Shown here: piece after piece, positions 26,422-47,897 of the stretch
How the letters are laid out: every line of letters begins with the position of its first letter
Position numbering within the stretch: position 1 is the stretch's first letter
Assembly: GCA_943354835.1 (NCBI GenBank)
Contig: CALRDH010000002.1
Coordinates: 106,270-170,269, forward strand
Origin: a candidate division WWE3 bacterium
GTDB taxonomy: Bacteria; Patescibacteriota; WWE3; 2-01-FULL-39-13
Reading direction: 5' to 3'
DNA: 64,000 nucleotides
Notes under the pieces: generated by a model
What the model saw: the letters and a program-made list of their open reading frames with translations, nothing else
Database searches by the model: none
What the model was told of the DNA's origin: nothing
Program-made: the position numbers and the translations under genes

Positions 26422-27186
26422 CTATTTTATATAACTTAACGGATTTACCAACTTCCATACATTACTATCCTTTATTTGTATCTCATAATGCAAATGTTCG
26501 CCTGTAGCAAAGCCAGTTCCACCCATTTCACCAAGTGGCGTTCCTGCTTGTATTTTACTACCGGAGTTAACATAAATATCTTTAAAATGAATATACTTTG
26601 TTTTTAGATCTCCACTATCGTTCATAATCTCAACCGTTTTTCCTCCTTCACCATCTACATAGGTTGATGACGTACCTGAATGTGTAGCGTGAATAATTAC
26701 CTTATTGTTTTCTTTATACGAATTGCTTTGTGCATAGTAGGTCGAATTTGGAATAATATCTATTCCTGTGTGGTTTTTACCAAATTGAAGAAAATAAGCA
26801 GGATCCATAAAACCAGCTGTAACAGATGTGTAAGACATGCCCGATCCTCCAAATGGATTTTGACTTGGTATCGTAGACTTAGCAAATTCCTCATTTATTC
26901 CGTTTAAATTATCTCCGACACTTGCAGCAACATACTTAAAAAATCCAGTTGGAGATAAAAATATTGTTGAAAATATTGCAATAAAAGTCACAAACAACAT
27001 TAAAGTCAACATCACAATTGAAGCGATAAACCCAAGAATTGGGCCTTTGAATTTAGCAACAACATCACCTGCAAGGGGTATGGGGATTATTAGATTAACT
27101 ACTATCTTGATAAGTGAATCAACAATGAATCCAAATGGATCATTTTTAGCATGTCGAATATTTTTCGCTACGCTTAATGCCTTCAT
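26422..27186 (-). CDS. M23-family metallopeptidase (peptidoglycan hydrolase) with N-terminal TM segments
   Basis: M23 motifs NHTGIDI and GEHLHYEI. Confidence 0.8.
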   Translation of the reverse strand: MKALSVAKNIRHAKNDPFGFIVDSLIKIVVNLIIPIPLAGDVVAKFKGPILGFIASIVMLTLMLFVTFIAIFSTIFLSPTGFFKYVAASVGDNLNGINEEFAKSTIPSQNPFGGSGMSYTSVTAGFMDPAYFLQFGKNHTGIDIIPNSTYYAQSNSYKENNKVIIHATHSGTSSTYVDGEGGKTVEIMNDSGDLKTKYIHFKDIYVNSGSKIQAGTPLGEMGGTGFATGEHLHYEIQIKDSNVWKLVNPLSYIK

Positions 27187-27192
27187 AAAATA

Positions 27193-29316
27193 TTAAGAAG
27201 TAAATACCAATGGCTGTTCAAACGGTAAAACAATTATATTTACTCTTACATGCTCGTTTTCTCTAAATAACACCACTTCTCCTATTCCCAAATGTCCAAG
27301 TTGCTGTTTTTCCTCATCAGTCATCGGGTAAATGGTTCCGATATCGCCAAGTGTTGCATACGACTGTTTTAGTAGGATTTTTGTTTCTGAGTTTGTAACA
27401 ATTGCCTTACCGTACTCATTATCTAAAAAGTCCTCAACATCTTGAGTAATAGAAACAACTCCAATATTTCGTTTTCTAGCTTGCTTTACAAGCTCTCTAA
27501 AAAATACCGCCACCTCAGGGTCAATTAATAGTTTGTGAGCCTCATCAATAAAAAGCATTCTCTTTTTGCCATTGTATTTGTTCACTAAATTCCAGATTAG
27601 TGAGGTTAAAAGATACATTGCAGGATCACGTTTCTCATCTTTTTTTAGATCGTGTAAATCAAGCACAATAATATCGTTATTAAGCTCAAGCTTTCGAGAC
27701 GAATTAAATACTCCGCGCAGACTACCAGTAGATAGAACACTTAAATCTTTTTGCATTGGGTGATCATTTAATAGCTCAAGTAAATTTTCAAATGTCGGGG
27801 TTCCTTGATCATAAAGTTTTATAAGTGCCTCATCTAAAAATGCACCGTCATAATGTACAGGGGGAATAAAGAACTTAAAAAAGGTCTTGAGTGTTGAAAT
27901 ATGATCAAGAATATCGTTTTCTTGCAGACTTGAAACATAAAAAGGATTAATGCCGTTTTCTCTTGAGAAAGAGATAACTTCTCCACCAAGTGCTTTTGCA
28001 ATATTGACATATTCGCCTTCTGGATCAATGACAATAATCTGCACACCTCGCATATACAGCCTATTCATAAGTATTTTTGCAGTCACACTTTTACCCGATC
28101 CAGATACTCCAAAAATATTTATATTATTGTTTCGTGATGTAAACGGATTAACGAACGCCAAGCTGTTGTTATAAGCGTTTACACCCATAAATATACCTTC
28201 TGGATCATTGAGTTGCTTTGAAACAAAAGGAAGTAAGTACGAAGCCGCAGTAGATTGCAAAATTCTATTTTCTTGTACATGATCAATATTAAATGGTAAA
28301 AAGTTTTTGAATGCCTGTTTTTGACCGTAGGTATATTGATTAAAAGTCATGTCCATTGTTCCAGTGATGTTTTGAAGTTGTTTATGAAGATCTGAAAGCT
28401 GTTTTGTATCTTTGGCTTCAAGTTGTAAATAAAGTGAGTATAAAACGCCTTTTTCAGCCTCATGCACTAACTCATCAATAAAGCTCATAACCTCTTCAAT
28501 ATTTTTATCAACCTGTTGATCTCGAAGTTTCCCTTGTTTTAACCTCTCATTTTGTTGCATCTCTAAAACAGACAATCTTTGTCGTGCTTTTTTCAAAAGT
28601 TCACTACTTGGAGATGGTTGAATAAAAATACTTATGGTAAATGGCAACGCGGAGCTTAAAAGCCTAAAAAATACATAGGGACTTAAATAAGCTGGAATAT
28701 CGGCAAGATAGTAGTATCGTTTTAACTTTTCTCCTACTTGAACATGGCTATCATGTTCTTGAATATACTCACTCTTGTATATTTTATGACCATTTCGTTC
28801 GACCTTTAGACCATTTGCATCATTTTCAATGTTCAGGTGTACTTCGGCTTTCCGAGAAGTTTCCAAAGCTTTGTAGTATAGTTTCAAGTCTTTCCTATAC
28901 TTAAAGTAATTGCGGACAAACCAAATTGGATTTTTTGTTTTTACAATTGATGGTTTATGAACAAGTGGCAACTGATTATGAATAAACGGAGTTTGCTCAA
29001 TAAGTTCTTGTTGTTTTTCAATAACACTCATCAAGCGTTTTATCTCATCTCGTAGGGCTAGTTTTAGTTTGCTATCATTTATTTTAGGTTCTCCATTAAA
29101 AAAACTTTCTTCAATTTCTGAAATACCTTTGCTTTTTGTTTTATAAATAGCATATTGTCGTTTTAGCTTTTTAAGCTCTTCATCTTGTTTTTCTTTCTCA
29201 TACGAAAGGTGCTCCAAGCGATTTTGAAGTCTTTGACTTAAATTAAAGACACGAATATCGTTATATGTATTCTTTATTTTGTTTTTAATGGTTATAGGTA
29301 TAGCTTTTATTTTCAT
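27193..29316 (-). CDS. VirB4-family type IV secretion ATPase
   Basis: Walker A GVSGSGKSVTAK, Walker B RMLFIDEAHKLL, C-terminal VSITQD; 707 aa. Confidence 0.85.
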   Translation of the reverse strand: MKIKAIPITIKNKIKNTYNDIRVFNLSQRLQNRLEHLSYEKEKQDEELKKLKRQYAIYKTKSKGISEIEESFFNGEPKINDSKLKLALRDEIKRLMSVIEKQQELIEQTPFIHNQLPLVHKPSIVKTKNPIWFVRNYFKYRKDLKLYYKALETSRKAEVHLNIENDANGLKVERNGHKIYKSEYIQEHDSHVQVGEKLKRYYYLADIPAYLSPYVFFRLLSSALPFTISIFIQPSPSSELLKKARQRLSVLEMQQNERLKQGKLRDQQVDKNIEEVMSFIDELVHEAEKGVLYSLYLQLEAKDTKQLSDLHKQLQNITGTMDMTFNQYTYGQKQAFKNFLPFNIDHVQENRILQSTAASYLLPFVSKQLNDPEGIFMGVNAYNNSLAFVNPFTSRNNNINIFGVSGSGKSVTAKILMNRLYMRGVQIIVIDPEGEYVNIAKALGGEVISFSRENGINPFYVSSLQENDILDHISTLKTFFKFFIPPVHYDGAFLDEALIKLYDQGTPTFENLLELLNDHPMQKDLSVLSTGSLRGVFNSSRKLELNNDIIVLDLHDLKKDEKRDPAMYLLTSLIWNLVNKYNGKKRMLFIDEAHKLLIDPEVAVFFRELVKQARKRNIGVVSITQDVEDFLDNEYGKAIVTNSETKILLKQSYATLGDIGTIYPMTDEEKQQLGHLGIGEVVLFRENEHVRVNIIVLPFEQPLVFTS

Positions 29317-30122
29317 CGTAGTGTTTGTTTTGCAAAACTTATTAACTCGTCAACCTCCAAAGCGCGTACTTGTATGTTGCAAGCAAAAAGAGCAGAAGAA
29401 AAACGCATAGTCATGTCATGTAACTTTTTCATACTCGCCAGCTTTTCATTGGGTTTTGTCGGGTTACAAGATACCGTAAAAACGGCATAATGCTTTGTTG
29501 CTGTAAAGTTACTTTCATTTATCATATCGGTTAAGTTTTCAATGTACTGTGCAATCAAAGGCTCGCGTTTAGTATTTGATTTTGCATAGAGCGAAAAGAA
29601 ATGTTTTGAGTAGTCTTGTGTTTTAGCCTGTTCTTTTTTCACAATAAACTGCACTTGATCTGGCAAAACATGAAGCATTTGTTTTAACTTTAAAAAGAAG
29701 TGTTCTCGATCTTGATCATTTAAAAGTGATATATCAAAAGGCTCAACTTCTAAAAGTTGAATAATGCTATTTTTACGAATAACCAAGTTGTCTTGAATAG
29801 TAAAATCAACAAAGTATGGTTCTAGTTCTTTTTGTCTAAATGTTTTCTTGCCCTTTTTAAACATAATTGCTCTTGGAAAAATTTTATAAATTGGTTGATT
29901 ATCAATTCTTTGAGTTATAAATCCTACAAAAGCTATCTCAAGTACAATAAGTGAAGCCAAGTACATATTCCAATTAAATGCATGAAATACATATGTAAGC
30001 AAAAAGTACAAACTTCCTGCAATAAACACCCCTCCAACTAAAAAGATGGTGCTGTCTGTAAAAAACAGACTTCTTAAAATGTGTTGACGAATATCGTCTT
30101 TATATATTCTTACGTTTTTCAT
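29313..30122 (-). CDS. Small T4SS-associated membrane protein (hypothetical)
   Basis: Two TM helices; translationally coupled (4-nt overlap) to VirB4; start trimmed to MKNVRIY. Confidence 0.4.
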   Translation of the reverse strand: MKNVRIYKDDIRQHILRSLFFTDSTIFLVGGVFIAGSLYFLLTYVFHAFNWNMYLASLIVLEIAFVGFITQRIDNQPIYKIFPRAIMFKKGKKTFRQKELEPYFVDFTIQDNLVIRKNSIIQLLEVEPFDISLLNDQDREHFFLKLKQMLHVLPDQVQFIVKKEQAKTQDYSKHFFSLYAKSNTKREPLIAQYIENLTDMINESNFTATKHYAVFTVSCNPTKPNEKLASMKKLHDMTMRFSSALFACNIQVRALEVDELISFAKQTLR

Positions 30123-31863
30123 TTTTGTTATATGAATACATTCGAATGATAGAATCGGCCGTTTCTTTTCCATGTCGTTCGATAATTACTCCTTTAATTC
30201 CAAGCGCACTATTTCTTTTTTGCGAAACATCTAAAAAGTTTCTAACCTTTTCAGGAGGGCTTGATTTTGTAACATAGGCATAGCTAATTGCTTTGCCTTG
30301 TTTTTGTGATTCTTGCATAGCGTTGTAATGATGAGGGTTTGGATTTTTCTTGCTAAAGGTTGAAAGATCAATAAAGCGATCTTCTTCCAGTTGAACTGTT
30401 TCAAGTTTATCCTCTGATACACCATCTTGAACGGCTTCCATTCGCGTTGGATAGTACGAGGTAAGACCTGTTTGTTTGTCTTCATGTTTGTATGCTTCAC
30501 CACTAATTGCAACTATCCCTTGTTTTGCATTTTCGGTTTGTATATTTAGTCCTTTCCCTTCGAGATCTTTTGAGAATCTTGTTTTTTGACTACTTGGTGT
30601 GACTTCACTTACTGTATGGCTTGAGGTTTCATTTGAGTATGTATTCTTGTTTGTTGATCCACCCCCACCGTAAAATTCGTTTTCTTTAGAATCCGATCTA
30701 TTTTTTAGTATTTGGTCTCGAACAAAGTGTCCTGCAACTGTGCCTAAGCTTCCACCGATCAAACCTCTTTGAAAATCTTTGACCTGAGATTGTACTGGTC
30801 CAGTTACTGCTCTTGTAGCCATTGCAGCCTGCATATTTGTGGCAAACGATCCCCAAGTGTCACCAAATATTCTTCCAACAAGCATGTTTACTCCACCTAA
30901 AAAGAATAAAAAGCCGGTGTAAAAAAAGAGCATTCCAACTGTTGGCCCTTTTGAACTTAAAATACTGCTAAAGATATCATTGGCAATTGCAAAACCAAGT
31001 ACAAATGCTGGTTGCTGAATTAAAAAGGTAAACCATGTTTTAAAAAAGGTGTTTACTATTCCTTGAGTTCTCTCAGACAAAGCAAATGGAATAATGATTG
31101 GATACAATACTCCTAAAAATACGAGTGATGCAAACCGAATAACAAACTGAAAACCAATATATACAAATCCTCCGAGTAAAAATAGAAATGTAAGGACAAA
31201 TAAAAATGTTTGTACAATAAATTTGCCAAATGACTTGAGCACTCCGCCATTCATCGAAACATCGTAGCTTGGAATACCATATTGCTCTGATTCATTACCT
31301 GCCTGAATTTTTTCTTCTGATGAATCAAGATAATCATTTAAAAACCCAGTAAATTGTTGAGTTGTTGTGATTTTATCTACCAATAAGTTATTAAACTGAA
31401 TACTGTACGATAAGATTGATGGGACGGTTAAAAACAAAACTACGGTAATAAGAAAACGAATTCCAAATGATTTTAGCTCTTGAAGGTTATCTGATCCTAT
31501 TTTTGAGACGGCTATTACTGCAATTGATATAGCAATAATAGGTATGGCAAGTTGGTTAAAAATATCTCGGTATTTTGTAACTCCAGGAATTTCTGTGTTG
31601 TCTTTTAGTTTTATAGTTTCTCCAAAAGGGTTTGGAGTATAAAAAATGAATCCTCCCATAAATGAGTCAAATCCAGCGATAAAATCTTGAAGTAAAGTAA
31701 TGATTGATGAAGGCTTGTCTTCAACCGTAAAGTTGTTTACCCATTGTACTTGTGGTGGAGGAGTTGGTGTTGGTGCGGGCTCTTGTGCAAAAGCGGGAGA
31801 AATATTAGCGAATGTGAGAATGCACAAAAAGATAATTAGTTTTAATGCTTTCATGCATATCAA
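30100..31863 (-). CDS. VirB6/TrbL-like polytopic T4SS membrane protein
   Basis: Signal peptide, Pro/Thr-rich linker, at least 6 TM helices, hydrophilic C-terminal extension. Confidence 0.5.
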   Translation of the reverse strand: MICMKALKLIIFLCILTFANISPAFAQEPAPTPTPPPQVQWVNNFTVEDKPSSIITLLQDFIAGFDSFMGGFIFYTPNPFGETIKLKDNTEIPGVTKYRDIFNQLAIPIIAISIAVIAVSKIGSDNLQELKSFGIRFLITVVLFLTVPSILSYSIQFNNLLVDKITTTQQFTGFLNDYLDSSEEKIQAGNESEQYGIPSYDVSMNGGVLKSFGKFIVQTFLFVLTFLFLLGGFVYIGFQFVIRFASLVFLGVLYPIIIPFALSERTQGIVNTFFKTWFTFLIQQPAFVLGFAIANDIFSSILSSKGPTVGMLFFYTGFLFFLGGVNMLVGRIFGDTWGSFATNMQAAMATRAVTGPVQSQVKDFQRGLIGGSLGTVAGHFVRDQILKNRSDSKENEFYGGGGSTNKNTYSNETSSHTVSEVTPSSQKTRFSKDLEGKGLNIQTENAKQGIVAISGEAYKHEDKQTGLTSYYPTRMEAVQDGVSEDKLETVQLEEDRFIDLSTFSKKNPNPHHYNAMQESQKQGKAISYAYVTKSSPPEKVRNFLDVSQKRNSALGIKGVIIERHGKETADSIIRMYSYNKNEKRKNI

Positions 31864-31865
31864 AG

Positions 31866-32150
31866 TTATACGGTTCCACCAACAAATTGCTTAATAATTC
31901 CAGCCAATGTTGCGGCACCAAATACAAGTAAACCACCGATTAGAATATTGATGATCCAACCTCTAAGTGTTGATTTACGCTCAGTATCATCTCCGCTCAT
32001 AACTAAAAAGATACCAAGTGTAGCAATGGCGATAGCCATAACAGGAAGAGAATACCATTGAAGAGTCTTGACTATACCCCATAGAAGACTGTCAAGGTTT
32101 GTGAACTGAATGGGTTGAGCTGCGTCATACCCCGGTATTCCGTTTGCCAT
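31866..32150 (-). CDS. VirB2/TrbC-like pilin subunit
   Basis: 94 aa with two hydrophobic helices in hairpin arrangement; first gene of the operon. Confidence 0.5.
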   Translation of the reverse strand: MANGIPGYDAAQPIQFTNLDSLLWGIVKTLQWYSLPVMAIAIATLGIFLVMSGDDTERKSTLRGWIINILIGGLLVFGAATLAGIIKQFVGGTV

Positions 32151-32366
32151 AATAGTTTATTTTTCTTTGGGGGCAGAACTTATAACAACACTATGAGATT
32201 AACAAGCGTAGTATAATTCTACATATAGTAAATGTCAACAATAAATGTTGATTTAATAACCTAATTCAAAATTCCGAAGGCAATATTGTGTTTAATCGTG
32301 ATTTATTGACTATAATAAGTTCAAGACACTGAGTAGAGTAAAAAGGTTATAATTACAAATAACGTT

Positions 32367-35042: not shown

Positions 35043-35081
35043 ATTTTTTTTGAGAGTATTATAAAAAGAACAGTTAAGAAT

Positions 35082-37034: not shown

Positions 37035-37060
37035 ATAAATAATGCATATATCTAAGCTGT

Positions 37061-39076: not shown

Positions 39077-40577
39077 TTAAATATTTCAAAATAGTGTATA
39101 TCTTCAACATCGCCATTGTGTCCATTTCACAGTACCTGAGTAGGTTTTCTTTAATTGTTTCTTTTTTTGAAGTTTCTGCATTTTCATATACCATTTCAAA
39201 CCAGCTCGTCATGGCTGTTGCGCCTTCTCCAATTTCGAGTTCATTGTATGAAAAATCAGGAGCAAAAAGTGGAAGCACATTTTTTATTGAGTAACTCCCT
39301 TTTAGTTTTGGATCTGCGTACCATTGTTTTTGAAATATATCCATGAGGTCATAGATCCGCTCATTCATATTTAGGCAAAAATCTGCAAACTGAGGGTGAA
39401 TTTCTGCCATGCGTTTATTTTGTGTTCCTTCAAATGATTTATTCCAAACGATAAGCGAGCCTTCTTTTCCAATGTGTTTTTGCAGTTCTGTCAAAAAGTT
39501 TGGGATAGGATCAATTTGAGACGTTTCTATAAATTCAAAATGTTCTAGCTCTCGGCCTTGTTGTTGTATGTGCAGTGACCACTGAAAAGGCATCTGATCA
39601 AATGGTTTGTAACCATCATACATAGGAATAGCCGGGTTATATGATTCATAATCGATAAAATAAAGTGGGTAGATTACTCCACTTAAATCTTTTTGAATCT
39701 TGTTTGAATCGATCTCAACCTTATTGTTTTGAGCAACATCTACTTGAAAGCGTTGTATTTTTGAAAGTGAAAAGTCTTTTGGTACATCAAAAACACTTTC
39801 AATACCTTGATCAATAAGATCTCGCATCTTGGCAACATTCGCCGATAATCGATTAATATCGTAGATAGAATAATCTGGAAGATCTGGGTGACAGATATCG
39901 AGACAAGGACACTCTTTTGGTTTAATGCATTTATCAGCAGATTGTAGATTGTTTTTTTGGGCTGTAGTAAAAGCTTCTTGTCGTAACTCTATAACTTCAT
40001 CGGTTAGTTTGCTAACTTCTTCTGTAATATCAGAGACAGTGAATAATTCAGATAGGCTTACATCTCCACTGCGTACATATTCTTTATTAAGATGTAGTAT
40101 GTTTAGCGTTCCTATGTCGTAAGACTCTCTAAATACGAGGTATTGAAAAGTGGCATCGAATTTGTGTGTCTTTTTAACATCATTGGTACTTTTGATTTCA
40201 TAAATATCCCACTTATTTGTTTTGACGTTTTTAATGAGAACATCTGTTCTTGCCTGAAAGTTGCCGTGTATGTGTGTTGGCTGTAAAAATACATTATCAG
40301 GGTCAATCTTGTAACTTGGGATGAGGATGTTCTGAATGTATTTTTCAGCTTGCTCTTCTACCTCATACCCTTGATCGAATAGGTGTTGAATAAAAACATT
40401 TATTTCTTTTTCAGAAAGCTTATTGTTTTTCAGTGCCCAGAGATGCCGTGGAGCATCGAGGAAAGCTATAAAGTCGGTTTTTGTGATCATCATGTATCTT
40501 CCGATTATACTGGAAAATGAAATTATATCTCTCATTATTGGGTGGTTTTCCCTTTTCTTCCTATCATGCTTCTTCAT
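39069..40577 (-). CDS. DUF2779-like dual nuclease: RecB/Cas4-like PD-(D/E)xK with 4-Cys cluster plus C-terminal DEDDy 3'-5' exonuclease-like domain
   Basis: N-terminal D(VLI)...YEIK...QYLVF (D, ExK, QxxxY) and CIKPKECPCLDIC cluster; C-terminal Exo I DYE, Exo III YCEMD; 8-nt convergent overlap with 37061..39076. Confidence 0.55.
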   Translation of the reverse strand: MKKHDRKKRENHPIMRDIISFSSIIGRYMMITKTDFIAFLDAPRHLWALKNNKLSEKEINVFIQHLFDQGYEVEEQAEKYIQNILIPSYKIDPDNVFLQPTHIHGNFQARTDVLIKNVKTNKWDIYEIKSTNDVKKTHKFDATFQYLVFRESYDIGTLNILHLNKEYVRSGDVSLSELFTVSDITEEVSKLTDEVIELRQEAFTTAQKNNLQSADKCIKPKECPCLDICHPDLPDYSIYDINRLSANVAKMRDLIDQGIESVFDVPKDFSLSKIQRFQVDVAQNNKVEIDSNKIQKDLSGVIYPLYFIDYESYNPAIPMYDGYKPFDQMPFQWSLHIQQQGRELEHFEFIETSQIDPIPNFLTELQKHIGKEGSLIVWNKSFEGTQNKRMAEIHPQFADFCLNMNERIYDLMDIFQKQWYADPKLKGSYSIKNVLPLFAPDFSYNELEIGEGATAMTSWFEMVYENAETSKKETIKENLLRYCEMDTMAMLKIYTILKYLIK

Positions 40578-40582
40578 TCTAT

Positions 40583-40702
40583 GGGGTTAAAATCATCTGT
40601 CAAAAGGTGGGTTTTTAGCTCGTTCCTCACTAAAAATCCTTTTTGACTTTGCTTTGCTCCGCAAAAACTTTTGACAGACCACTTTCGTTTGATTTTCACC
40701 CC
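40583..40702. repeat. Long imperfect inverted repeat in the DUF2779/RadC intergenic region
   Basis: Arm 40583..40610 GGGGTTAAAATCATCTGTCAAAAGGTGG; reverse complement of arm 40668..40702 shares GGGGT(T/G)AAAATCA and TCTGTCAAAAG blocks. Confidence 0.6.
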
Positions 40703-40782
40703 ATGCCCCTTTTTTTGCATGATAGGAATAAAAATCTTATCTGCAAGTTATTAATTTATTAAAGAAAGGGGGTGAGATCGAG

Positions 40783-41199
40783 ATGATTATCAAACTGCAA
40801 GATGCCAAAGTATCAGTAGCTAGTCCTAAGTGTGTATTTGAGCTGTTAAAAGCTTACTTTCTGACACTTGATGATTTTGATCAAGATAAAGAACACTTCT
40901 TTGTTTTTCATCTGGATATTAGAAACAAAATCAAAATTATGGATTTGGTTAGTGTTGGTACTCTAACACAGTCATTAGCGCATCCAAGAGAGGTATTTAC
41001 AAGAGTTATTCATAAGAGAACACCAGCGATAATACTTGCCCATAATCATCCATCAGGCGAAACAAGTCCGTCTTATGAGGACATAAGCATAACTAAACGC
41101 TTGTGTGAAGCTGGAAAGATACTCTCAACAGATGTAATAGATCACATCATTTTTACTGATAATGAGTTCTATAGCTTTAAAGAGCATGAGCTGATTTAG
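40783..41199 (+). CDS. RadC-like JAB/MPN domain protein
   Basis: JAMM motif HNHPSGETSPS; strong RBS AAGAAAGGGGGTGAG. Confidence 0.85.
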   Translation: MIIKLQDAKVSVASPKCVFELLKAYFLTLDDFDQDKEHFFVFHLDIRNKIKIMDLVSVGTLTQSLAHPREVFTRVIHKRTPAIILAHNHPSGETSPSYEDISITKRLCEAGKILSTDVIDHIIFTDNEFYSFKEHELI

Positions 41200-41233
41200 A
41201 GGTAGTAGTTATTAATTTATTCCCTTAAAGGAG

Positions 41234-41560
41234 GTGAAAGTTATGAAATTATTAACAAAGGAATTGTTGATGAGGTTTGAGAAGGTTGGCAGACAAGAGG
41301 ATGATAAAGATCCGATTGTTATTGCAAAGTTCTTTAATCCAACAGGAGCAGGTACTTGGCTTGCAACTGAGTACGATCCTCATTCAAAAGAATTCTTTGG
41401 ATTTGTATCGATATTTGGTGATTACAACGACGAGTGGGGATACTTTTCTCTTGATGAGCTAGAAAGCTACATTGGTAGATTTGGCTTAGGCATTGAAAGA
41501 GATAGGTATTTTACCGAGAAACGAATGAGTGAGGTAATGCCAAGTGCAATACTAGAGTAA
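41234..41560 (+). CDS. Small conjugative-element-associated protein (DUF2958-like, hypothetical)
   Basis: 108 aa with RBS AAAGGAGGTG; such families commonly sit next to RadC in ICEs; assignment tentative. Confidence 0.35.
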   Translation: MKVMKLLTKELLMRFEKVGRQEDDKDPIVIAKFFNPTGAGTWLATEYDPHSKEFFGFVSIFGDYNDEWGYFSLDELESYIGRFGLGIERDRYFTEKRMSEVMPSAILE

Positions 41561-41568
41561 GTTAAACT

Positions 41569-41600
41569 AATCCGTGGGTAGTGAAAGCTACCTGCGGATT
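41569..41600 (+). terminator. Hairpin (13-bp stem, 6-nt loop), copy 1 of repeated terminator-like module
   Basis: AATCCGTGGGTAG-tgaaag-CTACCTGCGGATT; module GAGTAAGTTAAAcTAATCC... repeated at 41795. Confidence 0.55.
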
Positions 41601-41641
41601 TAGTTTCAGATTATTATTAATAGTTAAAGGATATAAAAAAT

Positions 41642-41800
41642 ATGATAAACCCATTACTAACCGAACCATTTGAGAGTGAGATTTTAGAGCTGATTGAAAC
41701 GAGTGACGAGTTTACAACCAGCGACCTACAAGGCGTTGTTACCGTGTTGGTGAACAAGATTATGATTAAAGGGCACGAGATTTTGAAAGAGTCAGAGTAA
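41642..41800 (+). CDS. Small acidic hypothetical protein (52 aa, below ORF-track cut-off)
   Basis: ATG at 41642, stop TAA at 41798-41800; followed by hairpin copy 2. Confidence 0.25.
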   Translation: MINPLLTEPFESEILELIETSDEFTTSDLQGVVTVLVNKIMIKGHEILKESE

Positions 41801-41808
41801 GTTAAATT

Positions 41809-41851
41809 AATCCGTGGGTAGTTGCCAACAGCTACCTGCGGATTTTTTTAT
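41809..41851 (+). terminator. Rho-independent terminator (hairpin copy 2 plus T-tract)
   Basis: AATCCGTGGGTAG-ttgccaacag-CTACCTGCGGATT followed by TTTTTTTA. Confidence 0.7.
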
Positions 41852-41862
41852 ATTCAGGACTT

Positions 41863-42216
41863 TTGATTAATTTTATAAATTTAGATTATAATGAATTCAT
41901 GTACAAAATATTTGTAATGGTTCCAGTAGAAAATACAGATGAGATTATTACTGCAATGGCTGATGCGGGGGCTGGAGTTATAGGCAACTACACTCATAAT
42001 GCTGTTATTACCGCTGTTATGGGTAATTGGATGAGTGAAGAGGGCTCTAACCCCACAATTGGAGAAGTAGGCAAAATGAGCAGAGAATCAGAAAACAAAG
42101 TAGAAATGGTTTGCCCAGAAGATAAATTAGAGGGAGTTGTTAAAGCAATGCGAAAAGTTCACCCATATGAAACAGCCGCAGTTGATGTAATTAAGTTAGA
42201 AGATCTAAAATACTAA
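41863..42216 (+). CDS. CutA/PII-like small protein (NIF3 insert-domain-like)
   Basis: C-terminal HPYETAAVDV motif; likely true start at MYKIFVMVPV (41899). Confidence 0.4.
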   Translation: MINFINLDYNEFMYKIFVMVPVENTDEIITAMADAGAGVIGNYTHNAVITAVMGNWMSEEGSNPTIGEVGKMSRESENKVEMVCPEDKLEGVVKAMRKVHPYETAAVDVIKLEDLKY

Positions 42217-42217
42217 T

Positions 42218-42667
42218 ATGAATCAACAGGAACTTAATCAAAAAGCAAAGGATATTGTAAATTCAAACAAATACGTGAGTCTTGCTACAACAGATCAATC
42301 AAGACCTTGGATTGCTCCAGTTTTTTACTGTAAAGATGACAAATACAACTTTTATTTCATCTCTCAACCAGAAAGCTTACACATAAAGCATCTAAAGTTT
42401 ACGAATGAGGTTGCTTTTGCTATTTTTGACTCACACCAAGAGGAAGGCCAGGGAAATGGTGTTCAGGGATCAGCAAAAGTTGAATTATTGGAAGGTGACC
42501 AGATTGAAGATGGCTTGAAGTACTACTCGACGAGTTTTATTGAAATGACCACGGAATCTTTAAGAGAACCTTCTCCATATAGGTTGTACAAAATGATTCC
42601 AGAAAAAGTATTTATACTGGATGCAGAAGCAGATGTAGACAAGAGAATTGAAGTGTTTTTTAATTAA
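42218..42667 (+). CDS. PNPOx-like FMN-binding split-barrel protein
   Basis: KYVSLATTDQSRPWIAPVFYCKDDKYNFYFIS characteristic of the general stress protein 26 / PNPOx fold. Confidence 0.6.
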   Translation: MNQQELNQKAKDIVNSNKYVSLATTDQSRPWIAPVFYCKDDKYNFYFISQPESLHIKHLKFTNEVAFAIFDSHQEEGQGNGVQGSAKVELLEGDQIEDGLKYYSTSFIEMTTESLREPSPYRLYKMIPEKVFILDAEADVDKRIEVFFN

Positions 42668-42672
42668 ATTTT

Positions 42673-43437
42673 TTATTCGTCAATCTCCACCTCGCTCCAC
42701 ACATCCCCAGTTGCACCTAGTTGTTTAATTTGTTCTTTGGTTGTTGTTTGAAATGTTAGGTTTTCTATCTGCTCGTTTCTGCAAATTAGTTTTACTTTTT
42801 TAGTAACATATTCTTCAATTTCATTGTTTGGGCAGATAAATAATATTGTGGGTATCTGTTCTTGTTTGATCCAGTCTCCTTTTGTAAAGAAGGTTATATA
42901 TTGGTTTATTCGGTTAAGAATGAAAAAGCGGGGTTTTTCTGGAAATATCTCTGCTATTAAGTATGGTTTCGTCTTCCCCTTGCGGAAGACGAAGAAAGGA
43001 AAAATTTCTTTGATAATCCCGTCTAGTGAGTATTCTGATCTTGTGTAGAAGGTAAGTCCTTCTTTTGTGCCGTATTTCTTTAGTAGATTGATATAAATGT
43101 CTGCAATTAAAACACAGTTTTCAATAAATTTAGTGGATCTTGTATCTTCTTGATATAGCTTTGTAATGTATGCCTGTTCTGCGTAATCTTGAGTTTTGAT
43201 AAACTTCATTCCATTAGTTTTAAGATAGTAAACCGCCGGTTGGTTATTTATTTTTGAAGTTGTATCTAATTTTCGACCTGTATAGCCTTTATCCGTTAGA
43301 TCTTTTAGCCATGCGTTTATTCTGTTGTATGTTTTGTGGTTAAGTAATGTTTGTATCTGGATTCTATTGAGGAATCTGAATTTATAGAGTAAATATAGTA
43401 TAGTTTTTTGTGTATTTGTTATTGTAGGTAGTTTCAT
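42673..43437 (-). CDS. Replication-relaxation family protein (wHTH)
   Basis: N-terminal LTNTQKTILYLLYKFRFLNRIQIQTLL; directly downstream of the coupling protein. Confidence 0.5.
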   Translation of the reverse strand: MKLPTITNTQKTILYLLYKFRFLNRIQIQTLLNHKTYNRINAWLKDLTDKGYTGRKLDTTSKINNQPAVYYLKTNGMKFIKTQDYAEQAYITKLYQEDTRSTKFIENCVLIADIYINLLKKYGTKEGLTFYTRSEYSLDGIIKEIFPFFVFRKGKTKPYLIAEIFPEKPRFFILNRINQYITFFTKGDWIKQEQIPTILFICPNNEIEEYVTKKVKLICRNEQIENLTFQTTTKEQIKQLGATGDVWSEVEIDE

Positions 43438-43581
43438 TTTTTTATTTAATGATTCGTTCTTTTTGTAGTACGAATTTTTCTTTTCCTTATTCATAAGGAA
43501 TAAAGAGTACAAAAAATATTTTGTTTTTCCTTTTATATCAACTAATACTCAATTAATTTTGTGTTAGCTGATGACACAAGA

Positions 43582-46260
43582 TTATATTGATTTTCTTTTA
43601 GATTCACCCTGTTTACTGCTATCTTTTTTCTTGCTCTTAGACTTTTCGGCTTTTGTTGCAGGTTCAACTATTTTTAACTTTTCATCTAACTTTTTTAAAG
43701 TCTCTACATCTGCACCATATTTAGCTCTTGAATTTTCAATTACCAACTGCTCAATGTTTTCATCCTTGGGAGTTGTAAAGTCATAAGTACTACCAGTAAA
43801 TGCATCTTGTGGAATTACACCATTTATTTTTATGTAAAAGTTAAATGAAGGTAAGTTTGCTATTTGGTGTTCTTTAACCTGAGGAGCAAATAAAGGTAGA
43901 ATAAAATCCTCATCTGTTGGGTTGCTTGTTCTATAGGAAACAACGGTACCTACATTTGCAAGAATAACTTTTAACAAGTCTTGATCTTCTATTTGAGAGA
44001 TGGTTTGGTGTGCAAGTATTGTATCAAGCCTGTATTTGCGCGCTTCGGATAAGATTTGGGCAAAAGTCATAGTAGCAAAGTTTTGAAACTCATCTATGTA
44101 TAAAAAGAAATCTTCACGCTTATCTTGTGAAATATGGACTCGGTTTAAGGCGGCTAACTGCAACTTAAGAATAAGTAAGCTTCCTAAAAATGACGAAATA
44201 TCCTCACCTATTTTCCCTTTTGATAGATCACAAATAAGAATCTTTTTGTTGTTCATAATATCGTCAAAGTCAAGTTTGCTATTTTCTTGGGTCAAAATGT
44301 TTCTGGTTGTTTTAGTGGTAAAAAATCTACCAAGTTTATTGGTAATTGGTGAAATAAGCTCAGCTCTTTGGAAACTTCCAAAACCTTTAAACTCTTTCTC
44401 CCAGAATTCTTTAAGTAACGGATCTTCAAGTTTGGAAACAATGGTATCTCTCAAGTTTTTATCTACCAGCATTTTATATGCGGTAAGTAATGTGGGTTTT
44501 TCTGTTGAAAGAATGGCTAAAATAGTATTTCGCAGTACATGTTCCATTCGAGGGCGGGCAGTATTAGATGGGTAAAGCTTTAAAAACACAGAAATAAGGC
44601 TTGAAACGATAAGATCTTTTTCCCGTTCCTTTTCAACATCAGATAAACCTTGGGTCATTTGCAATACATTTAAACCAATAGGATGCTCAAGGTCATACGG
44701 ATTGAAGTAAATTACATCTTTGATTCTATCTTTTGGAATAACACCAATTAGCCTAGTTGCTAAATCTCCGTGTGGATCCATTACAGCTACACCTTTCCCG
44801 TTTTTTATATCTTGATAGATCATTTGTAGCAAAAGTGTGGTTTTGCCCATACCAGTTGCACCGATCAGGTACATGTGCCTTCGTCTTTCTTCTATCGTTA
44901 ATCCTATTGGGGTAATGCTTTCACCATGAATATTGTGCGCAAATACAATATCAAGATTTGAAGGATTTTTAAGACTAATTGGTGCTGGTAAATGTGACGA
45001 TTTTATTGATTGTAAGTCCTCGGTTTGAGTAGTTAGTGTAAATGGAAAGTGATAAATTGTTGAAAGTTCTGATACTGAAAAGATTGGATTAGAAGTAAAC
45101 GAGAACAATCGATACTTGAGACGTAAAAAGTTTAGCTTGGTAAAGAGTGAGTTAAAGTGTGCTGATTTAACCTTAAGAGACTGATAGCTAAGATTGGTAT
45201 ATGTTGCAAAGTTTCCTATAATCCCCTTTTTTCTAAGCTCAATATTATTTTTAGAAGTTCCAACAACTAAAAGTCGCATAGTTACCTCAAATAAATCTTG
45301 ATTAATTTTTGACTCTACAACTTCTTGTATCTGGCTTTGTTTTGGTGTTAGTTCAATTATTTGATCAGTTGTACTCTTTTCTTGTTCAAGCACGTATTTG
45401 CTTGGATATTTTGGCGATGCCATTGCAAAATCCATAATCCATTTAGTAAGGTCTTTTAGAAGAAGTACAAAAAGATCAAAAATAAAAAGTGGGATTACTT
45501 TTAGTGTATGTAATGTTTTTGCAAAAGAACTGTTTTGAATATATGAAACAATTTCTTTCCCTTCGTAAATACGTTTTTGTAGCTTAAATAAGTAATCTGC
45601 AATGTGCCCATGGTAGACAGGCGTTACAGGAGAAGTGACCAATTGCAAAGTAATTAACTCATCTGGCTCAAGTTTTGTCATCTGTCCGGTGATATATGCA
45701 ATCGGATCGTGCTCACCAAGTACATTTTGTTCTTTTAACGGAAGTACAAAGTGATTTTTAAGTTTGAATTCGGTAAACGAATATTTTTTGCTTTCTAAAT
45801 CTTCTAAAGACTTTGGCAAGTGGTCGGAAATTTGCTGAATTTCAATACCTGGAAGGTACGAAAGTAAGTTTTTACGAAGAATTGAAACATATTCTTTTGG
45901 TGTATAAATTATGTAGCGAATTCCATCACTTCTGCTAGAAGCTATTTCATAGCTGACACGTTTTTTGTTTCTGAGTAATCGGTCTAAAAGTGTTGGCTTT
46001 GTATCAAGCGAATGAAGAATAGTAAATAGCTGTTTGGTAGTAAATGCCGTTTGTAATGATATAGATGGAGGTTTTATCTCTAATAAAACATACGAGCCTT
46101 GAAGTGATTTTTTAAACTGTAGATATTTAAGAACACTAAGACCGATAAAAAAGAAAAAGGTGGCAAAAAAAACCACAGTAATCCATGAAATATTTGCTCC
46201 TATTAAAATTAGTTGGGCAAGTGTCGGTGGGATTACATCAGACCAGTTTATATTTTCCAT
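43582..46260 (-). CDS. Type IV coupling protein (VirD4/TraG/TraD-like T4CP)
   Basis: N-terminal TMs; Walker A LIGATGMGKTTL, Walker B FFLYIDEFQNF, AHQTISQ motif; lysine-rich C-terminal tail. Confidence 0.85.
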   Translation of the reverse strand: MENINWSDVIPPTLAQLILIGANISWITVVFFATFFFFIGLSVLKYLQFKKSLQGSYVLLEIKPPSISLQTAFTTKQLFTILHSLDTKPTLLDRLLRNKKRVSYEIASSRSDGIRYIIYTPKEYVSILRKNLLSYLPGIEIQQISDHLPKSLEDLESKKYSFTEFKLKNHFVLPLKEQNVLGEHDPIAYITGQMTKLEPDELITLQLVTSPVTPVYHGHIADYLFKLQKRIYEGKEIVSYIQNSSFAKTLHTLKVIPLFIFDLFVLLLKDLTKWIMDFAMASPKYPSKYVLEQEKSTTDQIIELTPKQSQIQEVVESKINQDLFEVTMRLLVVGTSKNNIELRKKGIIGNFATYTNLSYQSLKVKSAHFNSLFTKLNFLRLKYRLFSFTSNPIFSVSELSTIYHFPFTLTTQTEDLQSIKSSHLPAPISLKNPSNLDIVFAHNIHGESITPIGLTIEERRRHMYLIGATGMGKTTLLLQMIYQDIKNGKGVAVMDPHGDLATRLIGVIPKDRIKDVIYFNPYDLEHPIGLNVLQMTQGLSDVEKEREKDLIVSSLISVFLKLYPSNTARPRMEHVLRNTILAILSTEKPTLLTAYKMLVDKNLRDTIVSKLEDPLLKEFWEKEFKGFGSFQRAELISPITNKLGRFFTTKTTRNILTQENSKLDFDDIMNNKKILICDLSKGKIGEDISSFLGSLLILKLQLAALNRVHISQDKREDFFLYIDEFQNFATMTFAQILSEARKYRLDTILAHQTISQIEDQDLLKVILANVGTVVSYRTSNPTDEDFILPLFAPQVKEHQIANLPSFNFYIKINGVIPQDAFTGSTYDFTTPKDENIEQLVIENSRAKYGADVETLKKLDEKLKIVEPATKAEKSKSKKKDSSKQGESKRKSI

Positions 46261-46897: not shown

Positions 46898-46906
46898 ATT
46901 CTCCTA

Positions 46907-47636: not shown

Positions 47637-47897
47637 TTAAAACGGTAATACTTCTGACGATTTTACTTTTAGTGCTATACAAATATTTTCTATAACCGCA
47701 AATGTTGGGTTTTCTTCTCCACGTTCTATACCTGCATAATAAGTTACCGATATACCACTAGCTTTAGCTACTTCTTCTTGCGAAAGTTGCAAGCCCGAGC
47801 GTATTTCTCGTAGATTTTCGCCAAACTTTTGCTGGCTTTTTGGATTTACAGATGAATTCATAACCATAGTATATCTCAAATTTTTATAGTTCGTCAT
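47637..47897 (-). CDS. XRE-family helix-turn-helix transcriptional regulator
   Basis: HTH LSQEEVAKASGISVTYYAGIERGE. Confidence 0.8.
   Translation of the reverse strand: MTNYKNLRYTMVMNSSVNPKSQQKFGENLREIRSGLQLSQEEVAKASGISVTYYAGIERGEENPTFAVIENICIALKVKSSEVLPF

What the first reader, a model, noticed from the sequence alone, without database searches (positions are those of the whole stretch)
26422..46260. T4SS split into two modules with a 10-kb defence/anti-restriction cargo between them and no recognisable relaxase
- One module runs VirB2-like, VirB6-like, small TM protein, VirB4 and M23 hydrolase (31.9 down to 26.4 kb, minus strand).
- The other runs T4CP and a replication-relaxation protein (46.3 down to 42.7 kb).
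- The R-M/GHKL/DUF2779/RadC island lies between them.
- No MOB-family relaxase is evident anywhere in the window.
- This is a minimal Gram-positive/CPR-style apparatus, so it could be a conjugative element using a non-canonical relaxase.
- The large serine recombinase or the replication-relaxation protein are candidates for that role.
- Alternatively it could be a chromosomal T4SS used for DNA uptake or host interaction.
Basis: inference. Interest (0 to 1): 0.6.

Follow-up and report, generated by a model that had tools for sequence, protein, structure and literature searches.

The report
Conjugative island in a CPR bacterium
The region is one ~29-kb integrative conjugative element in a candidate-division WWE3 (Patescibacteria) chromosome, and its "missing" relaxase is the replication-relaxation protein next to the coupling protein, a diverged member of the recognised MOBC relaxase class, so it is a good example of a known kind, not a new system.

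Summary
VirB2/VirB6/TrsD-VirB3-like/VirB4/M23 lie at 26.4-32.2 kb, and the coupling protein (T4CP) plus a Replic_Relax protein at 42.7-46.3 kb. Between them sit a type III R-M system, a GHKL ATPase, DUF2779, RadC and DUF2958.

"No relaxase" is wrong. PF13814 (Replic_Relax) is the MOBC relaxase class. The 254-aa protein models as a MarR-like winged helix plus a PD-(D/E)XK-like nuclease domain. It aligns across both domains with the TraX homologue of pTEF1, and a T4CP-relaxase fusion exists in nature. Several catalytic residues of TraX are not conserved, so activity is inferred.

Relatives share one backbone: serine recombinase, HTH, T4CP, MOBC, (RadC), DUF2958, a variable cargo slot, then VirB2...VirB4, M23 and PLD. 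The "split" is therefore the family's normal layout.

The block runs from tRNA-Arg(tct) to tRNA-Leu(gag). The recombinase ORF reads antisense through the tRNA, as in two other elements. The nearest species representative lacks the block at the left junction.

MOBC relaxases next to t4cp in Patescibacteria were reported in 2025, so this is a new member of a known kind. No excision or empty site was shown.

The parts
20430..20505 (-). tRNA-Arg(tct); chromosomal left flank of the island
   Evidence: ARAGORN. Homology with the closest WWE3 species representative (L004) ends just past this tRNA.
20549..21436 (-). Fic-domain protein (SoFic / PDC-S04-like), distal cargo
   Evidence: Pfam Fic 1e-22; PADLOC SoFic 7e-31. 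Not present next to PLD in relatives.
21539..22947 (-). DUF2157 polytopic membrane protein (21539-22504) and a 152-aa membrane ORF (22489-22947), distal cargo
   Evidence: Pfam; hydropathy.
23017..24012 (+). RhuM / PDC-S05 family protein, distal cargo
   Evidence: Pfam 6e-93; PADLOC PDC-S05 7e-126.
24136..24606 (+). Small PLD-family (Nuc-like) protein; conserved terminal gene of the T4SS module
   Evidence: Pfam PLDc_2 3e-11. Present at this position in 16 of the 24 VirB4 loci of at least 8 kb listed (47-84% identity).
24653..25621 (+). 76-aa ORF (partly conserved) and 195-aa ORF, function unknown
   Evidence: No hit in Pfam, NCBIfam or PHROGs. The 76-aa ORF is conserved in L071, L080 and L082.
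25629..26417 (-). 262-aa bitopic membrane protein always following M23 in this T4SS family (candidate for the VirB8 role, untested)
   Evidence: Conserved in 22 of the 24 listed VirB4 loci, 35-83% identity. Single N-terminal TM segment. No family or PDB hit.
26422..27186 (-). Membrane-anchored M23 peptidoglycan hydrolase (VirB1 role)
   Evidence: Pfam 3e-14; NCBIfam DD-endopeptidases.
27193..29316 (-). VirB4 ATPase, MPF_FATA-like
   Evidence: Pfam. NCBIfam conju_CD1110 5e-72 and mycoplasma-ICE VirB4 8e-69. 46 related metagenome loci at 60-100% identity.
29313..30173 (-). TrsD / VirB3-like protein (two TM segments plus a VirB4-N-like domain)
   Evidence: NCBIfam TrsD 7e-8 and the VirB4_plasma N-terminal region 3e-11. 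PrgI weak.
30100..31863 (-). VirB6-like polytopic membrane protein
   Evidence: Pfam TrbL 2e-5; 5-6 TM segments; syntenic in all relatives.
31866..32150 (-). VirB2-type pilin
   Evidence: PF04956 above its cut-off; TM hairpin.
32367..40577 (.). Cargo slot: type III R-M (Res 32367-35042, Mod 35082-37034), GHKL ATPase with an HSDR_N-like domain (37061-39076), DUF2779 / Cas4-like nuclease (39069-40577, minus strand)
   Evidence: Pfam; PADLOC. The same slot holds different cargo in L122, L118, L126, L127, L067 and L082.
40579..40706 (.). Conserved large inverted repeat upstream of RadC/DUF2958; candidate oriT or leading-region single-strand promoter
   Evidence: The arms are 100% identical in L067, L068, L069, L118 and L119 while the loop varies. 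A diverged copy in L126 carries one compensatory pair. Folded as DNA: -26.8 kcal/mol, z = -6.35.
40783..41560 (+). RadC (40783-41199) and DUF2958 (41234-41560): putative leading-region genes
   Evidence: Pfam. DUF2958 follows the relaxase in L067, L069, L118, L122, L126 and L127; RadC also in L126.
41554..42667 (+). Local insertion of a 117-aa ORF and a PNPOx-like protein, flanked by a duplicated terminator-like hairpin (41554-41600 and 41794-41850)
   Evidence: Repeat D5; hairpins. L067 has one hairpin copy and no insert between DUF2958 and the relaxase.
42673..43437 (-). MOBC-class (Replic_Relax) putative relaxase, 254 aa
   Evidence: PF13814 36.2 bits against a cut-off of 25.3. Models pLDDT 91-92. 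MarR-like N-terminal domain. PD-(D/E)XK-like C-terminal domain. hhalign to the pTEF1 TraX homologue E 3.5e-5. T4CP fusion P0243.
43582..46260 (-). VirD4-type coupling protein with a DUF8128 N-terminal region
   Evidence: Pfam; Walker A; 92% identical in L067.
46538..47203 (-). Two small ORFs (119 aa and 98 aa) of unknown function
   Evidence: No family hit and no homologue in the relatives fetched by then. The slot between HTH and T4CP is variable.
47637..47897 (-). Cro/C1-type HTH regulator, divergent from the recombinase operon; palindromic repeats at 47942-47982 are a likely operator
   Evidence: Pfam HTH_3 2e-12. 90% identical in L067. Repeats.
48000..48209 (+). 69-aa ORF immediately upstream of the recombinase (possible directionality factor)
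   Evidence: 72% identical to the ORF at the same position in L069. No family hit.
48175..49902 (+). Large serine recombinase (integrase); its last ~33 codons are antisense tRNA-Leu
   Evidence: Resolvase + Recombinase + Zn_ribbon_recom. XisF/Ccr-like. The C-terminal tail matches translated tRNA-Leu in other loci. 82% identical in L069.
49810..49895 (-). tRNA-Leu(gag); right junction and integration target
   Evidence: ARAGORN. L080 has a decayed recombinase C-terminus at the same side of its own tRNA-Leu(gag).

Best explanation
Window ~20.5-49.8 kb is a single integrative conjugative element of about 29.3 kb in a WWE3 (Patescibacteria) chromosome. It lies between tRNA-Arg(tct) and the 3' side of tRNA-Leu(gag).

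Proposed working, all inferred from gene content:
1. A Cro/C1-type HTH regulator controls a divergent operon of a 69-aa ORF and a large serine recombinase. The recombinase excises and re-integrates the element at the tRNA.
2. The 254-aa MOBC-class protein binds and nicks an oriT through its MarR-like winged helix and PD-(D/E)XK-like nuclease domain. The best oriT candidate is the conserved inverted repeat at 40579-40706.
3. The protein hands the DNA to the adjacent VirD4-type coupling protein.
4. The DNA leaves through a monoderm MPF_FATA-like channel: VirB4, a TrsD/VirB3-like protein, VirB6, an M23 wall hydrolase, a VirB2 pilin and a conserved 262-aa membrane protein.
5. RadC and DUF2958 beside the repeat behave like leading-region genes.

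The 10-kb 'gap' between the two modules is the family's standard cargo slot, here filled with a type III R-M system, a GHKL ATPase and DUF2779. More defence-type cargo (Fic, RhuM) sits at the distal end.

Shown: gene identities, the conserved backbone in relatives, the fold of the relaxase, and the tRNA borders. Inferred: activity, the oriT, excision and transfer.
For: Components:
- All ICE components are present and intact.

Relaxase:
- PF13814 is MOBC by CONJScan (Coluzzi 2017, PMC5357655). That paper describes a compact serine integrase + VirD4 + MobC element class.
- The models are confident (pLDDT 91 and 92).
- The N-terminal domain matches MarR regulators (probability 1.0).
- Among the best hits to the C-terminal domain, PD-(D/E)XK nucleases dominate: YaeQ, Nt.BspD6I, PaqCI, XisH, Shedu, Can2. 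This is the TraX architecture (PMC12857230).
- hhalign of the family profile against the pTEF1 replication-relaxation protein gives E 3.5e-5 over 194 columns. MOB-suite types that plasmid MOBC. TraX E170 aligns with the conserved E163.
- P0243 is a natural fusion of T4CP (46% identical) with this relaxase.

One element, not two:
- L122 has the same order and strands. SerRec (overlapping tRNA-Glu), a small ORF, HTH and T4CP come first. MOBC and DUF2958 follow, then 6 kb of GT2/GH8 cargo, then VirB2-VirB6-TrsD-VirB4.
- L082 has T4CP and MOBC, three genes, then VirB2 through PLD.
- L071 (VirB4 98% identical) runs from PLD straight into SerRec, a small ORF and HTH. That is the circular permutation expected of an element that circularises.

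Mobility:
- The backbone occurs with different cargo and different tRNA targets: Leu in the window, Ser in L067, Glu in L122.
- It occurs in MAGs labelled Roizmanbacteria, Parcubacteria, Levybacteria and Pacebacteria.
- L069 (its relaxase, P0008, carries a Roizmanbacteria label in one source) shares SerRec 82%, T4CP 75% and relaxase 74% with this WWE3 window.
- The nearest WWE3 species representative, L004, has DedA rather than the island after tRNA-Arg.
- The flanks are housekeeping genes.
Against: - No empty site, circular junction or att sequence was found. No flanking repeats exist, as expected for serine recombinases, so the left end at about 20.51 kb is only bracketed.
- The Pfam match covers only the N-terminal 111 of 191 profile positions.
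- Fold matches for the nuclease domain are weak (E 0.03-0.2, TM 0.36-0.46).
- On the hhalign alignment (probability only 72%), several residues needed in TraX are not conserved in the window protein: D152 -> F148, Y181 -> F171, Y203 -> F200, E28 -> K19.
- The best PHROG match is named 'replication initiation protein'.
- Most VirB4 relatives show no T4CP or relaxase within the 7-10 kb available.
- L080 has the same T4SS beside a decayed recombinase.
- Published work holds that most Patescibacteria T4SSs are not conjugative (PMC12102498).
Confidence: 0.68

Rival explanations
1. Two adjacent entities. One is an integrative mobilizable element (SerRec-HTH-T4CP-MOBC-DUF2958/RadC plus R-M cargo, about 32.3-49.8 kb). 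It inserted next to a resident chromosomal T4SS (20.5-32.2 kb) that serves host interaction. The IME only borrows that channel.
For: - L067/L068, L118, L124, L126 and L127 show the SerRec-T4CP-MOBC backbone with no VirB gene within 10 kb.
- Streptococcal IME_Class_8 has exactly this trio without a T4SS.
- Many VirB4 loci lack a nearby T4CP or relaxase.
- PMC12102498 reports 39 relaxases near t4cp but only 15 near virB4.
Against: - Gene order and strand are the same in L122 and L082, with only 6 kb and 2.9 kb between the modules.
- L071 links the PLD end to SerRec/HTH.
- In the 'IME-only' loci the cargo exceeds the 10-kb flank, so the absence of VirB genes is uninformative.
- In L067 the flank ends in the same fn3-giant + ABC/FtsX pair that directly precedes VirB2 in L077 (59% and 46% identical).
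- L004 lacks the T4SS side of the block after tRNA-Arg.
Confidence: 0.15
2. A domesticated or decaying element. The T4SS is kept for the epibiotic lifestyle, as in Saccharibacteria. The relaxase-like protein is catalytically dead or repurposed, so no DNA is transferred.
For: - The canonical 'PD' aspartate is F148 in the window and its nearest homologues. Other TraX residues are not conserved either.
- L080 keeps the T4SS next to a degraded recombinase.
- PMC12102498 and PMC12857230.
Against: - All backbone genes here are full-length.
- The relaxase family keeps invariant or near-invariant Y70, Y95, E/D97, D113, E163, R170, R/K176 and Y180.
- E/D144 is present wherever D148 is lost, which is compatible with active-site migration.
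- Near-identical backbones carry different cargo and use different tRNA sites, which implies recent movement.
Confidence: 0.12
3. The Replic_Relax protein is a replication initiator of an integrated plasmid-like element. The true relaxase is absent or supplied in trans.
For: - The best PHROG match is phrog_2190, 'replication initiation protein' (8e-7, nearly full length).
- The Pfam name covers both roles.
Against: - The gene is always immediately downstream of the coupling protein, and is fused to it in P0243.
- The PF13814 plasmid homologue is typed MOBC.
- Experimental work on TraX supports a relaxase role (as summarised in PMC12857230).
- No partition genes or iterons were seen.
Confidence: 0.05

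Closest known systems
Patescibacteria T4SS clusters with MOBC relaxases (Quinonero-Coronel et al. 2025, PMC12102498)
   Same: - MPF_FATA-like VirB4 with TrsD, VirB3/VirB6 homologues, a VirB2 pilin and an M23-type hydrolase.
- MOBC is the commonest relaxase class found (58 of 109), mostly next to t4cp.
   Different: - That survey does not mention integrases or recombinases in its main text, and no ICE delineation, att/tRNA borders or cargo slot appear in the parts read.
- It regards relaxase-bearing cases as a small acquired minority.
- Here the whole element and its family backbone are laid out.
- The relaxase family looks larger and more diverged than standard thresholds catch. It has 1,471 cluster representatives. 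L082 has no Pfam hit and L126 scores below the cut-off.
Streptococcal IME_Class_8 (Coluzzi et al. 2017, PMC5357655)
   Same: A compact module of serine integrase, VirD4-type coupling protein and PF13814/MobC relaxase.
   Different: Those elements are mobilizable only and have no T4SS. The window element also carries VirB2/B6/TrsD/B4/M23. The host is a CPR bacterium and the target is a tRNA gene.
pAD1/pTEF1 TraX (MOBC prototype, Enterococcus)
   Same: - About 260 aa.
- N-terminal winged helix plus a PD-(D/E)XK-type domain.
- The gene lies beside the coupling protein.
- Detectable by profile alignment (E 3.5e-5). E170 corresponds to E163 and R180 approximately to R170.
- A large inverted repeat lies nearby, as at oriT2.
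   Different: - No tblastn match in any plasmid of PLSDB at E<=1e-3.
- The equivalents of D152, E172, Y181, Y203 and E28 are not conserved in the window protein.
- Integrated element rather than a pheromone plasmid.
MPF_FATA ICEs of Firmicutes/Tenericutes (CTn2/CD1110 type, mycoplasma ICEs)
   Same: - Best NCBIfam matches of VirB4 are to these families.
- Minimal monoderm channel plus a wall hydrolase.
   Different: - Scores are below the equivalog cut-offs.
- A VirB2 pilin is present.
- The relaxase is MOBC rather than MOBT or MOBP.
- The integrase is a serine recombinase.

Membership tests
MOBC relaxases (PF13814 Replic_Relax; TraX_pAD1, MobC_CloDF13) | Significant match to the family profile | tested here: met
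   PF13814 scores 36.2 bits against a gathering cut-off of 25.3, E 8e-9, but only profile positions 1-111 of 191 are matched. hhalign of the 65-sequence family profile against the pTEF1 TraX homologue gives E 3.5e-5, probability 72%, over 194 columns. PF13814 = MobC by CONJScan.
MOBC relaxases (PF13814 Replic_Relax; TraX_pAD1, MobC_CloDF13) | N-terminal MarR-like winged-helix DNA-binding domain | tested here: met
   AlphaFold model pLDDT 91. Foldseek PDB hits to MepR, MarR, OhrR, SlyA and others at probability 0.96-1.0.
MOBC relaxases (PF13814 Replic_Relax; TraX_pAD1, MobC_CloDF13) | C-terminal PD-(D/E)XK restriction-endonuclease-like fold | tested here: inconclusive
MOBC relaxases (PF13814 Replic_Relax; TraX_pAD1, MobC_CloDF13) | Conservation of residues needed in TraX (E28, D152, E170, E172, K176, R180, Y181, Y203; list recalled from Francia et al. 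2013, a paper not held here; positions checked against the pTEF1 sequence) | tested here: inconclusive
   E170 corresponds to E163 (acidic in 57 of 65 sequences). R180 corresponds approximately to R170 (50 of 65). K176 is near K168. D152 aligns with F148 in the window (D in 25 of 65 sequences; E/D144 is present when D148 is absent). Y181 -> F171, Y203 -> F200, E28 -> K19, and E172 falls in a gap. The alignment could be shifted locally.
MOBC relaxases (PF13814 Replic_Relax; TraX_pAD1, MobC_CloDF13) | Encoded next to a VirD4-type coupling protein | tested here: met
   Adjacent in the window and in L067-L070, L082, L122 and L124-L127. Fused in P0243.
MOBC relaxases (PF13814 Replic_Relax; TraX_pAD1, MobC_CloDF13) | Site- and strand-specific nicking at a cognate oriT | not testable with these tools
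   Only a candidate site exists: the conserved inverted repeat at 40579-40706.
Integrative conjugative element | Integrase + relaxase + T4CP + VirB4-based mating-pore genes on one contiguous block | tested here: met
   The same linked backbone occurs in L122 and L082.
Integrative conjugative element | Defined insertion: borders at a target site and absence from the same site in relatives | tested here: inconclusive
   tRNA genes lie at both edges, and the recombinase ORF crosses into tRNA-Leu. L004 lacks the block after tRNA-Arg, but its right side is not syntenic. No empty site was found. Same-sample contigs break at both junctions.
Integrative conjugative element | Excision to a circle and transfer | not testable with these tools
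   Only indirect evidence: the circularly permuted gene order in L071.
Patescibacteria / MPF_FATA-type T4SS | VirB4 closest to monoderm conjugation ATPases, with TrsD, VirB3/VirB6, a pilin and a wall hydrolase clustered | tested here: met
   conju_CD1110 5e-72 (243 bits, below the equivalog cut-off of 325). TrsD 7e-8. TrbL 24.8 bits. PF04956 29.1 bits. M23. No phylogeny was made, so placement in the 'Patescibacteria clade' is not tested.
Patescibacteria / MPF_FATA-type T4SS | VirB8-like component | not tested
   The 262-aa bitopic protein (25629-26417) is the positional candidate.
Large serine recombinases (integrases) | Resolvase catalytic domain + Recombinase domain + zinc ribbon | tested here: met
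   PF00239 3e-17, PF07508 5e-9, PF13408 2e-11. XisF/CcrB-like.

The most novel reading that the evidence does not exclude
The Patescibacteria-type T4SS may still be a working conjugation machine in many CPR lineages. It is currently thought to have been co-opted for non-conjugative roles because relaxases are 'absent'. Its relaxases would be a large, diverged MOBC-like family that standard profiles half-miss. That family has 1,471 cluster representatives at 50% identity. Some members score below the Pfam cut-off or are not hit at all. They are often separated from virB4 by 6 to more than 10 kb of cargo. On this reading CPR bacteria exchange defence and metabolic genes by ICEs that target tRNA genes with serine integrases. 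The chromosomal 'essential' T4SSs would be domesticated descendants of such ICEs, with L080 as an intermediate.
Probability: 0.25. Interest if true: 0.7.

Novelty: new member of a known kind. Interest (0 to 1): 0.42.

Why it matters
CPR/Patescibacteria are a large part of bacterial diversity. The role of their T4SS is debated: conjugation, or host interaction that is essential for the epibiotic life.

This window gives a complete example in which that T4SS sits inside an element with an integrase, a coupling protein and a MOBC-class relaxase. Its relatives show a reusable backbone spread across several CPR classes and carrying defence, metal-resistance and glycan genes.

That supports real conjugative gene flow in at least some CPR lineages. 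It also warns that 'no relaxase' calls can reflect diverged MOBC proteins and long cargo inserts. It does not establish a new mechanism.

Tried and rejected
Searches that found nothing useful:
- Direct and inverted repeat search for att sites across 19.5-51 kb: only chance-level repeats. This is expected for serine recombinases.
- tblastn of the relaxase against 72,556 plasmids: no match.
- phmmer of the relaxase against PDB sequences: nothing meaningful.
- CloDF13 record searched with the family HMM for MobC: no hit, and mobC is not annotated there.
- NCBIfam and PHROGs on the hypothetical proteins (69, 76, 98, 117, 119, 152, 195 and 262 aa): no relaxase or accessory family.
- Pfam on 22 flanking ORFs: housekeeping genes only.
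- The 262-aa protein against PDB sequences: nothing.

Empty-site search:
- Exact-protein look-ups of flanking RsuA, PPIase and SOD returned only same-strain contigs, which end at the junctions.
- The single genome-contig scan gave relatives too distant for right-side synteny.
- A DNA alignment of the L067 and L071 recombinase 3' ends, made to locate the crossover, was uninformative.

Ideas rejected:
- The serine recombinase as relaxase. It has standard integrase architecture and sits at the element edge.
- The split as a sign of two unrelated systems (see L122, L082 and L071).
- Composition as evidence for an island. GC is 0.31-0.36 inside the block and 0.33-0.40 outside, which does not discriminate.

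Full report
**Host and setting.** The window comes from a candidate-division WWE3 (Patescibacteria/CPR) chromosome. The RsuA-type pseudouridine synthase left of the block is 71% identical to that of a WWE3 MAG, and the next hits are WWE3 or CPR. The flanks are housekeeping genes: a copper ATPase, a PIN toxin and RsuA on the left; PPIase, SOD, IMPDH and TrmD on the right. tRNA genes bracket the block: tRNA-Phe and tRNA-Arg(tct) at 20278-20505, and tRNA-Leu(gag) and tRNA-Val at 49810-50002.

**Observation.**
- T4SS module (minus strand): M23, VirB4, a 286-aa TrsD/VirB3-like protein with two TM segments, VirB6-like and VirB2.
- Second module: T4CP and a PF13814 Replic_Relax protein.
- Between them: a type III R-M pair, a GHKL ATPase, DUF2779, RadC, DUF2958, a 117-aa ORF and a PNPOx-like protein.
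- VirB4 scores best against monoderm conjugation ATPases (CD1110 family and mycoplasma ICEs). This fits the published MPF_FATA affinity of Patescibacteria T4SSs.

**The relaxase.** The claim of no recognisable relaxase does not hold.
- PF13814 is the Pfam family of the MOBC relaxase class, recognised as MobC by CONJScan (Coluzzi 2017). MOBC is listed among the MOB classes as the restriction-endonuclease-type relaxases.
- Homologues show the true protein is 254 aa, starting at M26.
- AlphaFold models built with a 65-sequence alignment are confident (pLDDT 91 and 92).
- The N-terminal half matches MarR-family winged-helix regulators.
- The C-terminal half alone returns mostly PD-(D/E)XK nucleases among its best hits, but with weak statistics.
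- This is the two-domain architecture described for TraX of pAD1.
- The family profile aligns with the replication-relaxation protein of pTEF1. That pAD1-like plasmid is typed MOBC and its gene lies beside a coupling protein. The alignment covers 194 columns at E 3.5e-5.
- In that alignment TraX E170 matches the conserved E163, and R180 approximately matches R170.
- The 'PD' aspartate (TraX D152) is F148 in the window. Y181, Y203 and E28 are not conserved either.
- Across the family, an acidic residue at 144 appears wherever D148 is missing. This would fit active-site migration, but that is inference.
- A 1,232-aa protein (P0243) fuses a T4CP (46% identical to the window's) to this relaxase domain. 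This supports a functional pair.
- No other MOB family was hit in the block or the flanks.

**One element or two?** Relatives found through the relaxase and through VirB4 answer this.
- Relaxase-centred loci share one backbone: serine recombinase, a small ORF, a divergent HTH, (variable genes), T4CP, MOBC, (RadC) and DUF2958. These are L067/L068, L069/L070, L118, L122 and L124-L127. Cargo follows.
- VirB4-centred loci (46 loci, 60-100% identity) share VirB2, VirB6, TrsD-like, VirB4, M23, a 262-aa membrane protein, variable genes and PLD.
- L122 joins the two exactly as in the window, with 6 kb of glycosyltransferase and GH8 cargo in the slot.
- L082 joins them with only three genes between.
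- L071 has a VirB4 98% identical to the window's. It runs from PLD directly into a serine recombinase, a small ORF and an HTH that is 78% identical to the window's. This is the order expected if the window element were circularised.
- In L067 the 10-kb flank ends in an fn3-giant plus ABC/FtsX pair. That pair is homologous to the genes that immediately precede VirB2 in L077.
- The split is therefore a conserved cargo slot. It holds a type III R-M system here, type I R-M in L118, MmeI-type R-M in L126, metal/Dsb genes in L127, and a DGR plus AbiE in L067.

**Borders and mobility.**
- The recombinase ORF (48175-49902) reads antisense through tRNA-Leu(gag). Its last ~33 residues match translated tRNA-Leu in unrelated loci.
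- The same geometry occurs with tRNA-Ser(cga) in L067 and tRNA-Glu(ttc) in L122, with recombinases only 24-26% identical to the window's.
- L080 keeps a decayed C-terminal fragment of a window-type recombinase at the 3' side of its own tRNA-Leu(gag). This indicates the same target choice in another genome.
- On the left, homology with the closest species representative (L004) stops just past tRNA-Arg, where L004 has a DedA gene.
- Backbone proteins are 74-92% identical in contigs whose relaxase carries a different CPR class label in one source. Examples are SerRec at 82% in L069 (Roizmanbacteria label on P0008) and T4CP at 92% in L067. The housekeeping RsuA reaches only 47-71% within WWE3.
- I found no empty site and no circular junction. 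In one sample the contigs stop at both junctions. That is compatible with population heterogeneity but proves nothing.

**oriT candidate.** A 128-nt inverted repeat (40579-40706) lies upstream of RadC and DUF2958.
- Its arms are identical in five related loci while the loop varies. A diverged copy in L126 has one compensatory pair. L069 has a second, diverged copy of the left arm.
- As single-stranded DNA it folds far better than shuffles (z = -6.35).
- It could be the oriT, since pAD1 oriT2 also has a large inverted repeat. It could instead be a leading-region single-strand promoter. Neither was tested.

**Comparison with the literature.** Quinonero-Coronel et al. 2025 surveyed 3,035 Patescibacteria genomes.
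- They found 109 relaxases, of which 58 were MOBC. Only 15 were near virB4 and 39 near t4cp.
- The window is one of the relaxase-bearing minority, so the kind is known.
- What is added here is the delineated ICE, its conserved backbone and cargo slot, and the serine integrase targeting tRNA genes.
- A further addition is the indication that the relaxase family is large. It has 1,471 cluster representatives at 50% identity with E<=1e-3, and 460 with E<=1e-30.
- The family is also partly below standard detection. L082 has no Pfam hit, L126 scores 22 bits against a cut-off of 25.3, and many homologues have no precomputed PF13814 hit.

**Verdict.** The region is an ordinary but instructive ICE of a CPR bacterium with a MOBC-class relaxase. 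Activity, oriT and excision remain inferred. Interest is moderate.

Noticed in passing
window 48175-49902 / 49810-49895; L067 1711-3333 / 1735-1822; L122 4502-6073 / 4491-4565: In three independent elements the serine recombinase ORF runs antisense into or through a tRNA gene at the junction (Leu-gag, Ser-cga, Glu-ttc). The L071 homologue is not next to a tRNA and is about 30 aa shorter than the L067 one. The crossover therefore seems to lie at the very 3' end of the integrase gene, and integration changes its C-terminus.
   Followed up: partly
P0243 (1232 aa): A natural fusion of a T4CP (46% identical to the window's) with the Replic_Relax/MOBC domain at residues 982-1232. It could be real or an assembly or frame artefact.
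   Followed up: partly
window 6574-11670 (-): A 1,698-aa alpha-2-macroglobulin homologue carries a Hint / PT-HINT / intein-like domain (about residues 831-961). It lies between the bait region and the A2M domain.
   Followed up: no
window 15230-18870 vs L004 9067-9303: The closest WWE3 relative has only the first 32 codons of the DsbD-HMA gene and the last 56 codons of the copper P-type ATPase at this spot. This is a second indel (a metal-resistance cassette) in the window.
   Followed up: no
window 41554-41600 and 41794-41850: A terminator-like hairpin lies between DUF2958 and the relaxase in L067. In the window it is duplicated (29 nt, 97% identical), with one copy directly after DUF2958 and the second directly before the inserted 117-aa ORF + PNPOx pair, which looks like a local cargo insertion at that hairpin.
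   Followed up: partly
L080 13926-14900: The same T4SS module (VirB4 72% identical) ends at PLD. It is followed by tRNA-Leu(gag) and a stop-ridden remnant of a window-type recombinase C-terminus. No T4CP or relaxase lies within 10 kb. This may be an immobilised descendant.
   Followed up: partly
L067 11403-13213; L077 466-6962; L081 76-2922: Related elements carry a diversity-generating retroelement (bAvd + RT) as cargo. A giant fn3 protein plus a MacB-like ABC/FtsX fusion lies directly upstream of virB2 in L077. The ABC/FtsX gene alone is seen upstream of virB2 in L081. The pair might be an adhesin/export accessory of the T4SS.
   Followed up: no
relaxase family alignment A2, positions 144 and 148: Sequences with the canonical P-D148 tend to lack an acidic residue at 144. 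Those with F, H, S or T at 148 (including the window) have E or D at 144. This suggests migration of a catalytic carboxylate.
   Followed up: partly
window 47942-47982: Two 15-nt palindromic repeats (ACTAyAACTATAGTT) lie between the HTH gene and the recombinase operon. They are a likely operator.
   Followed up: no
L001 and L129 (both sample ERZ27280224): In this assembly, contigs of the same strain stop inside rsuA, inside virB6 and 35 bp before the PPIase gene. These points are at or near the island's edges. This is compatible with strain-level presence/absence or with tRNA repeats.
   Followed up: no
window 2975-4177 (+): A second Fic-domain protein (Fic_N + Fic) lies outside the island. 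It is 25% identical to the island's Fic.
   Followed up: no
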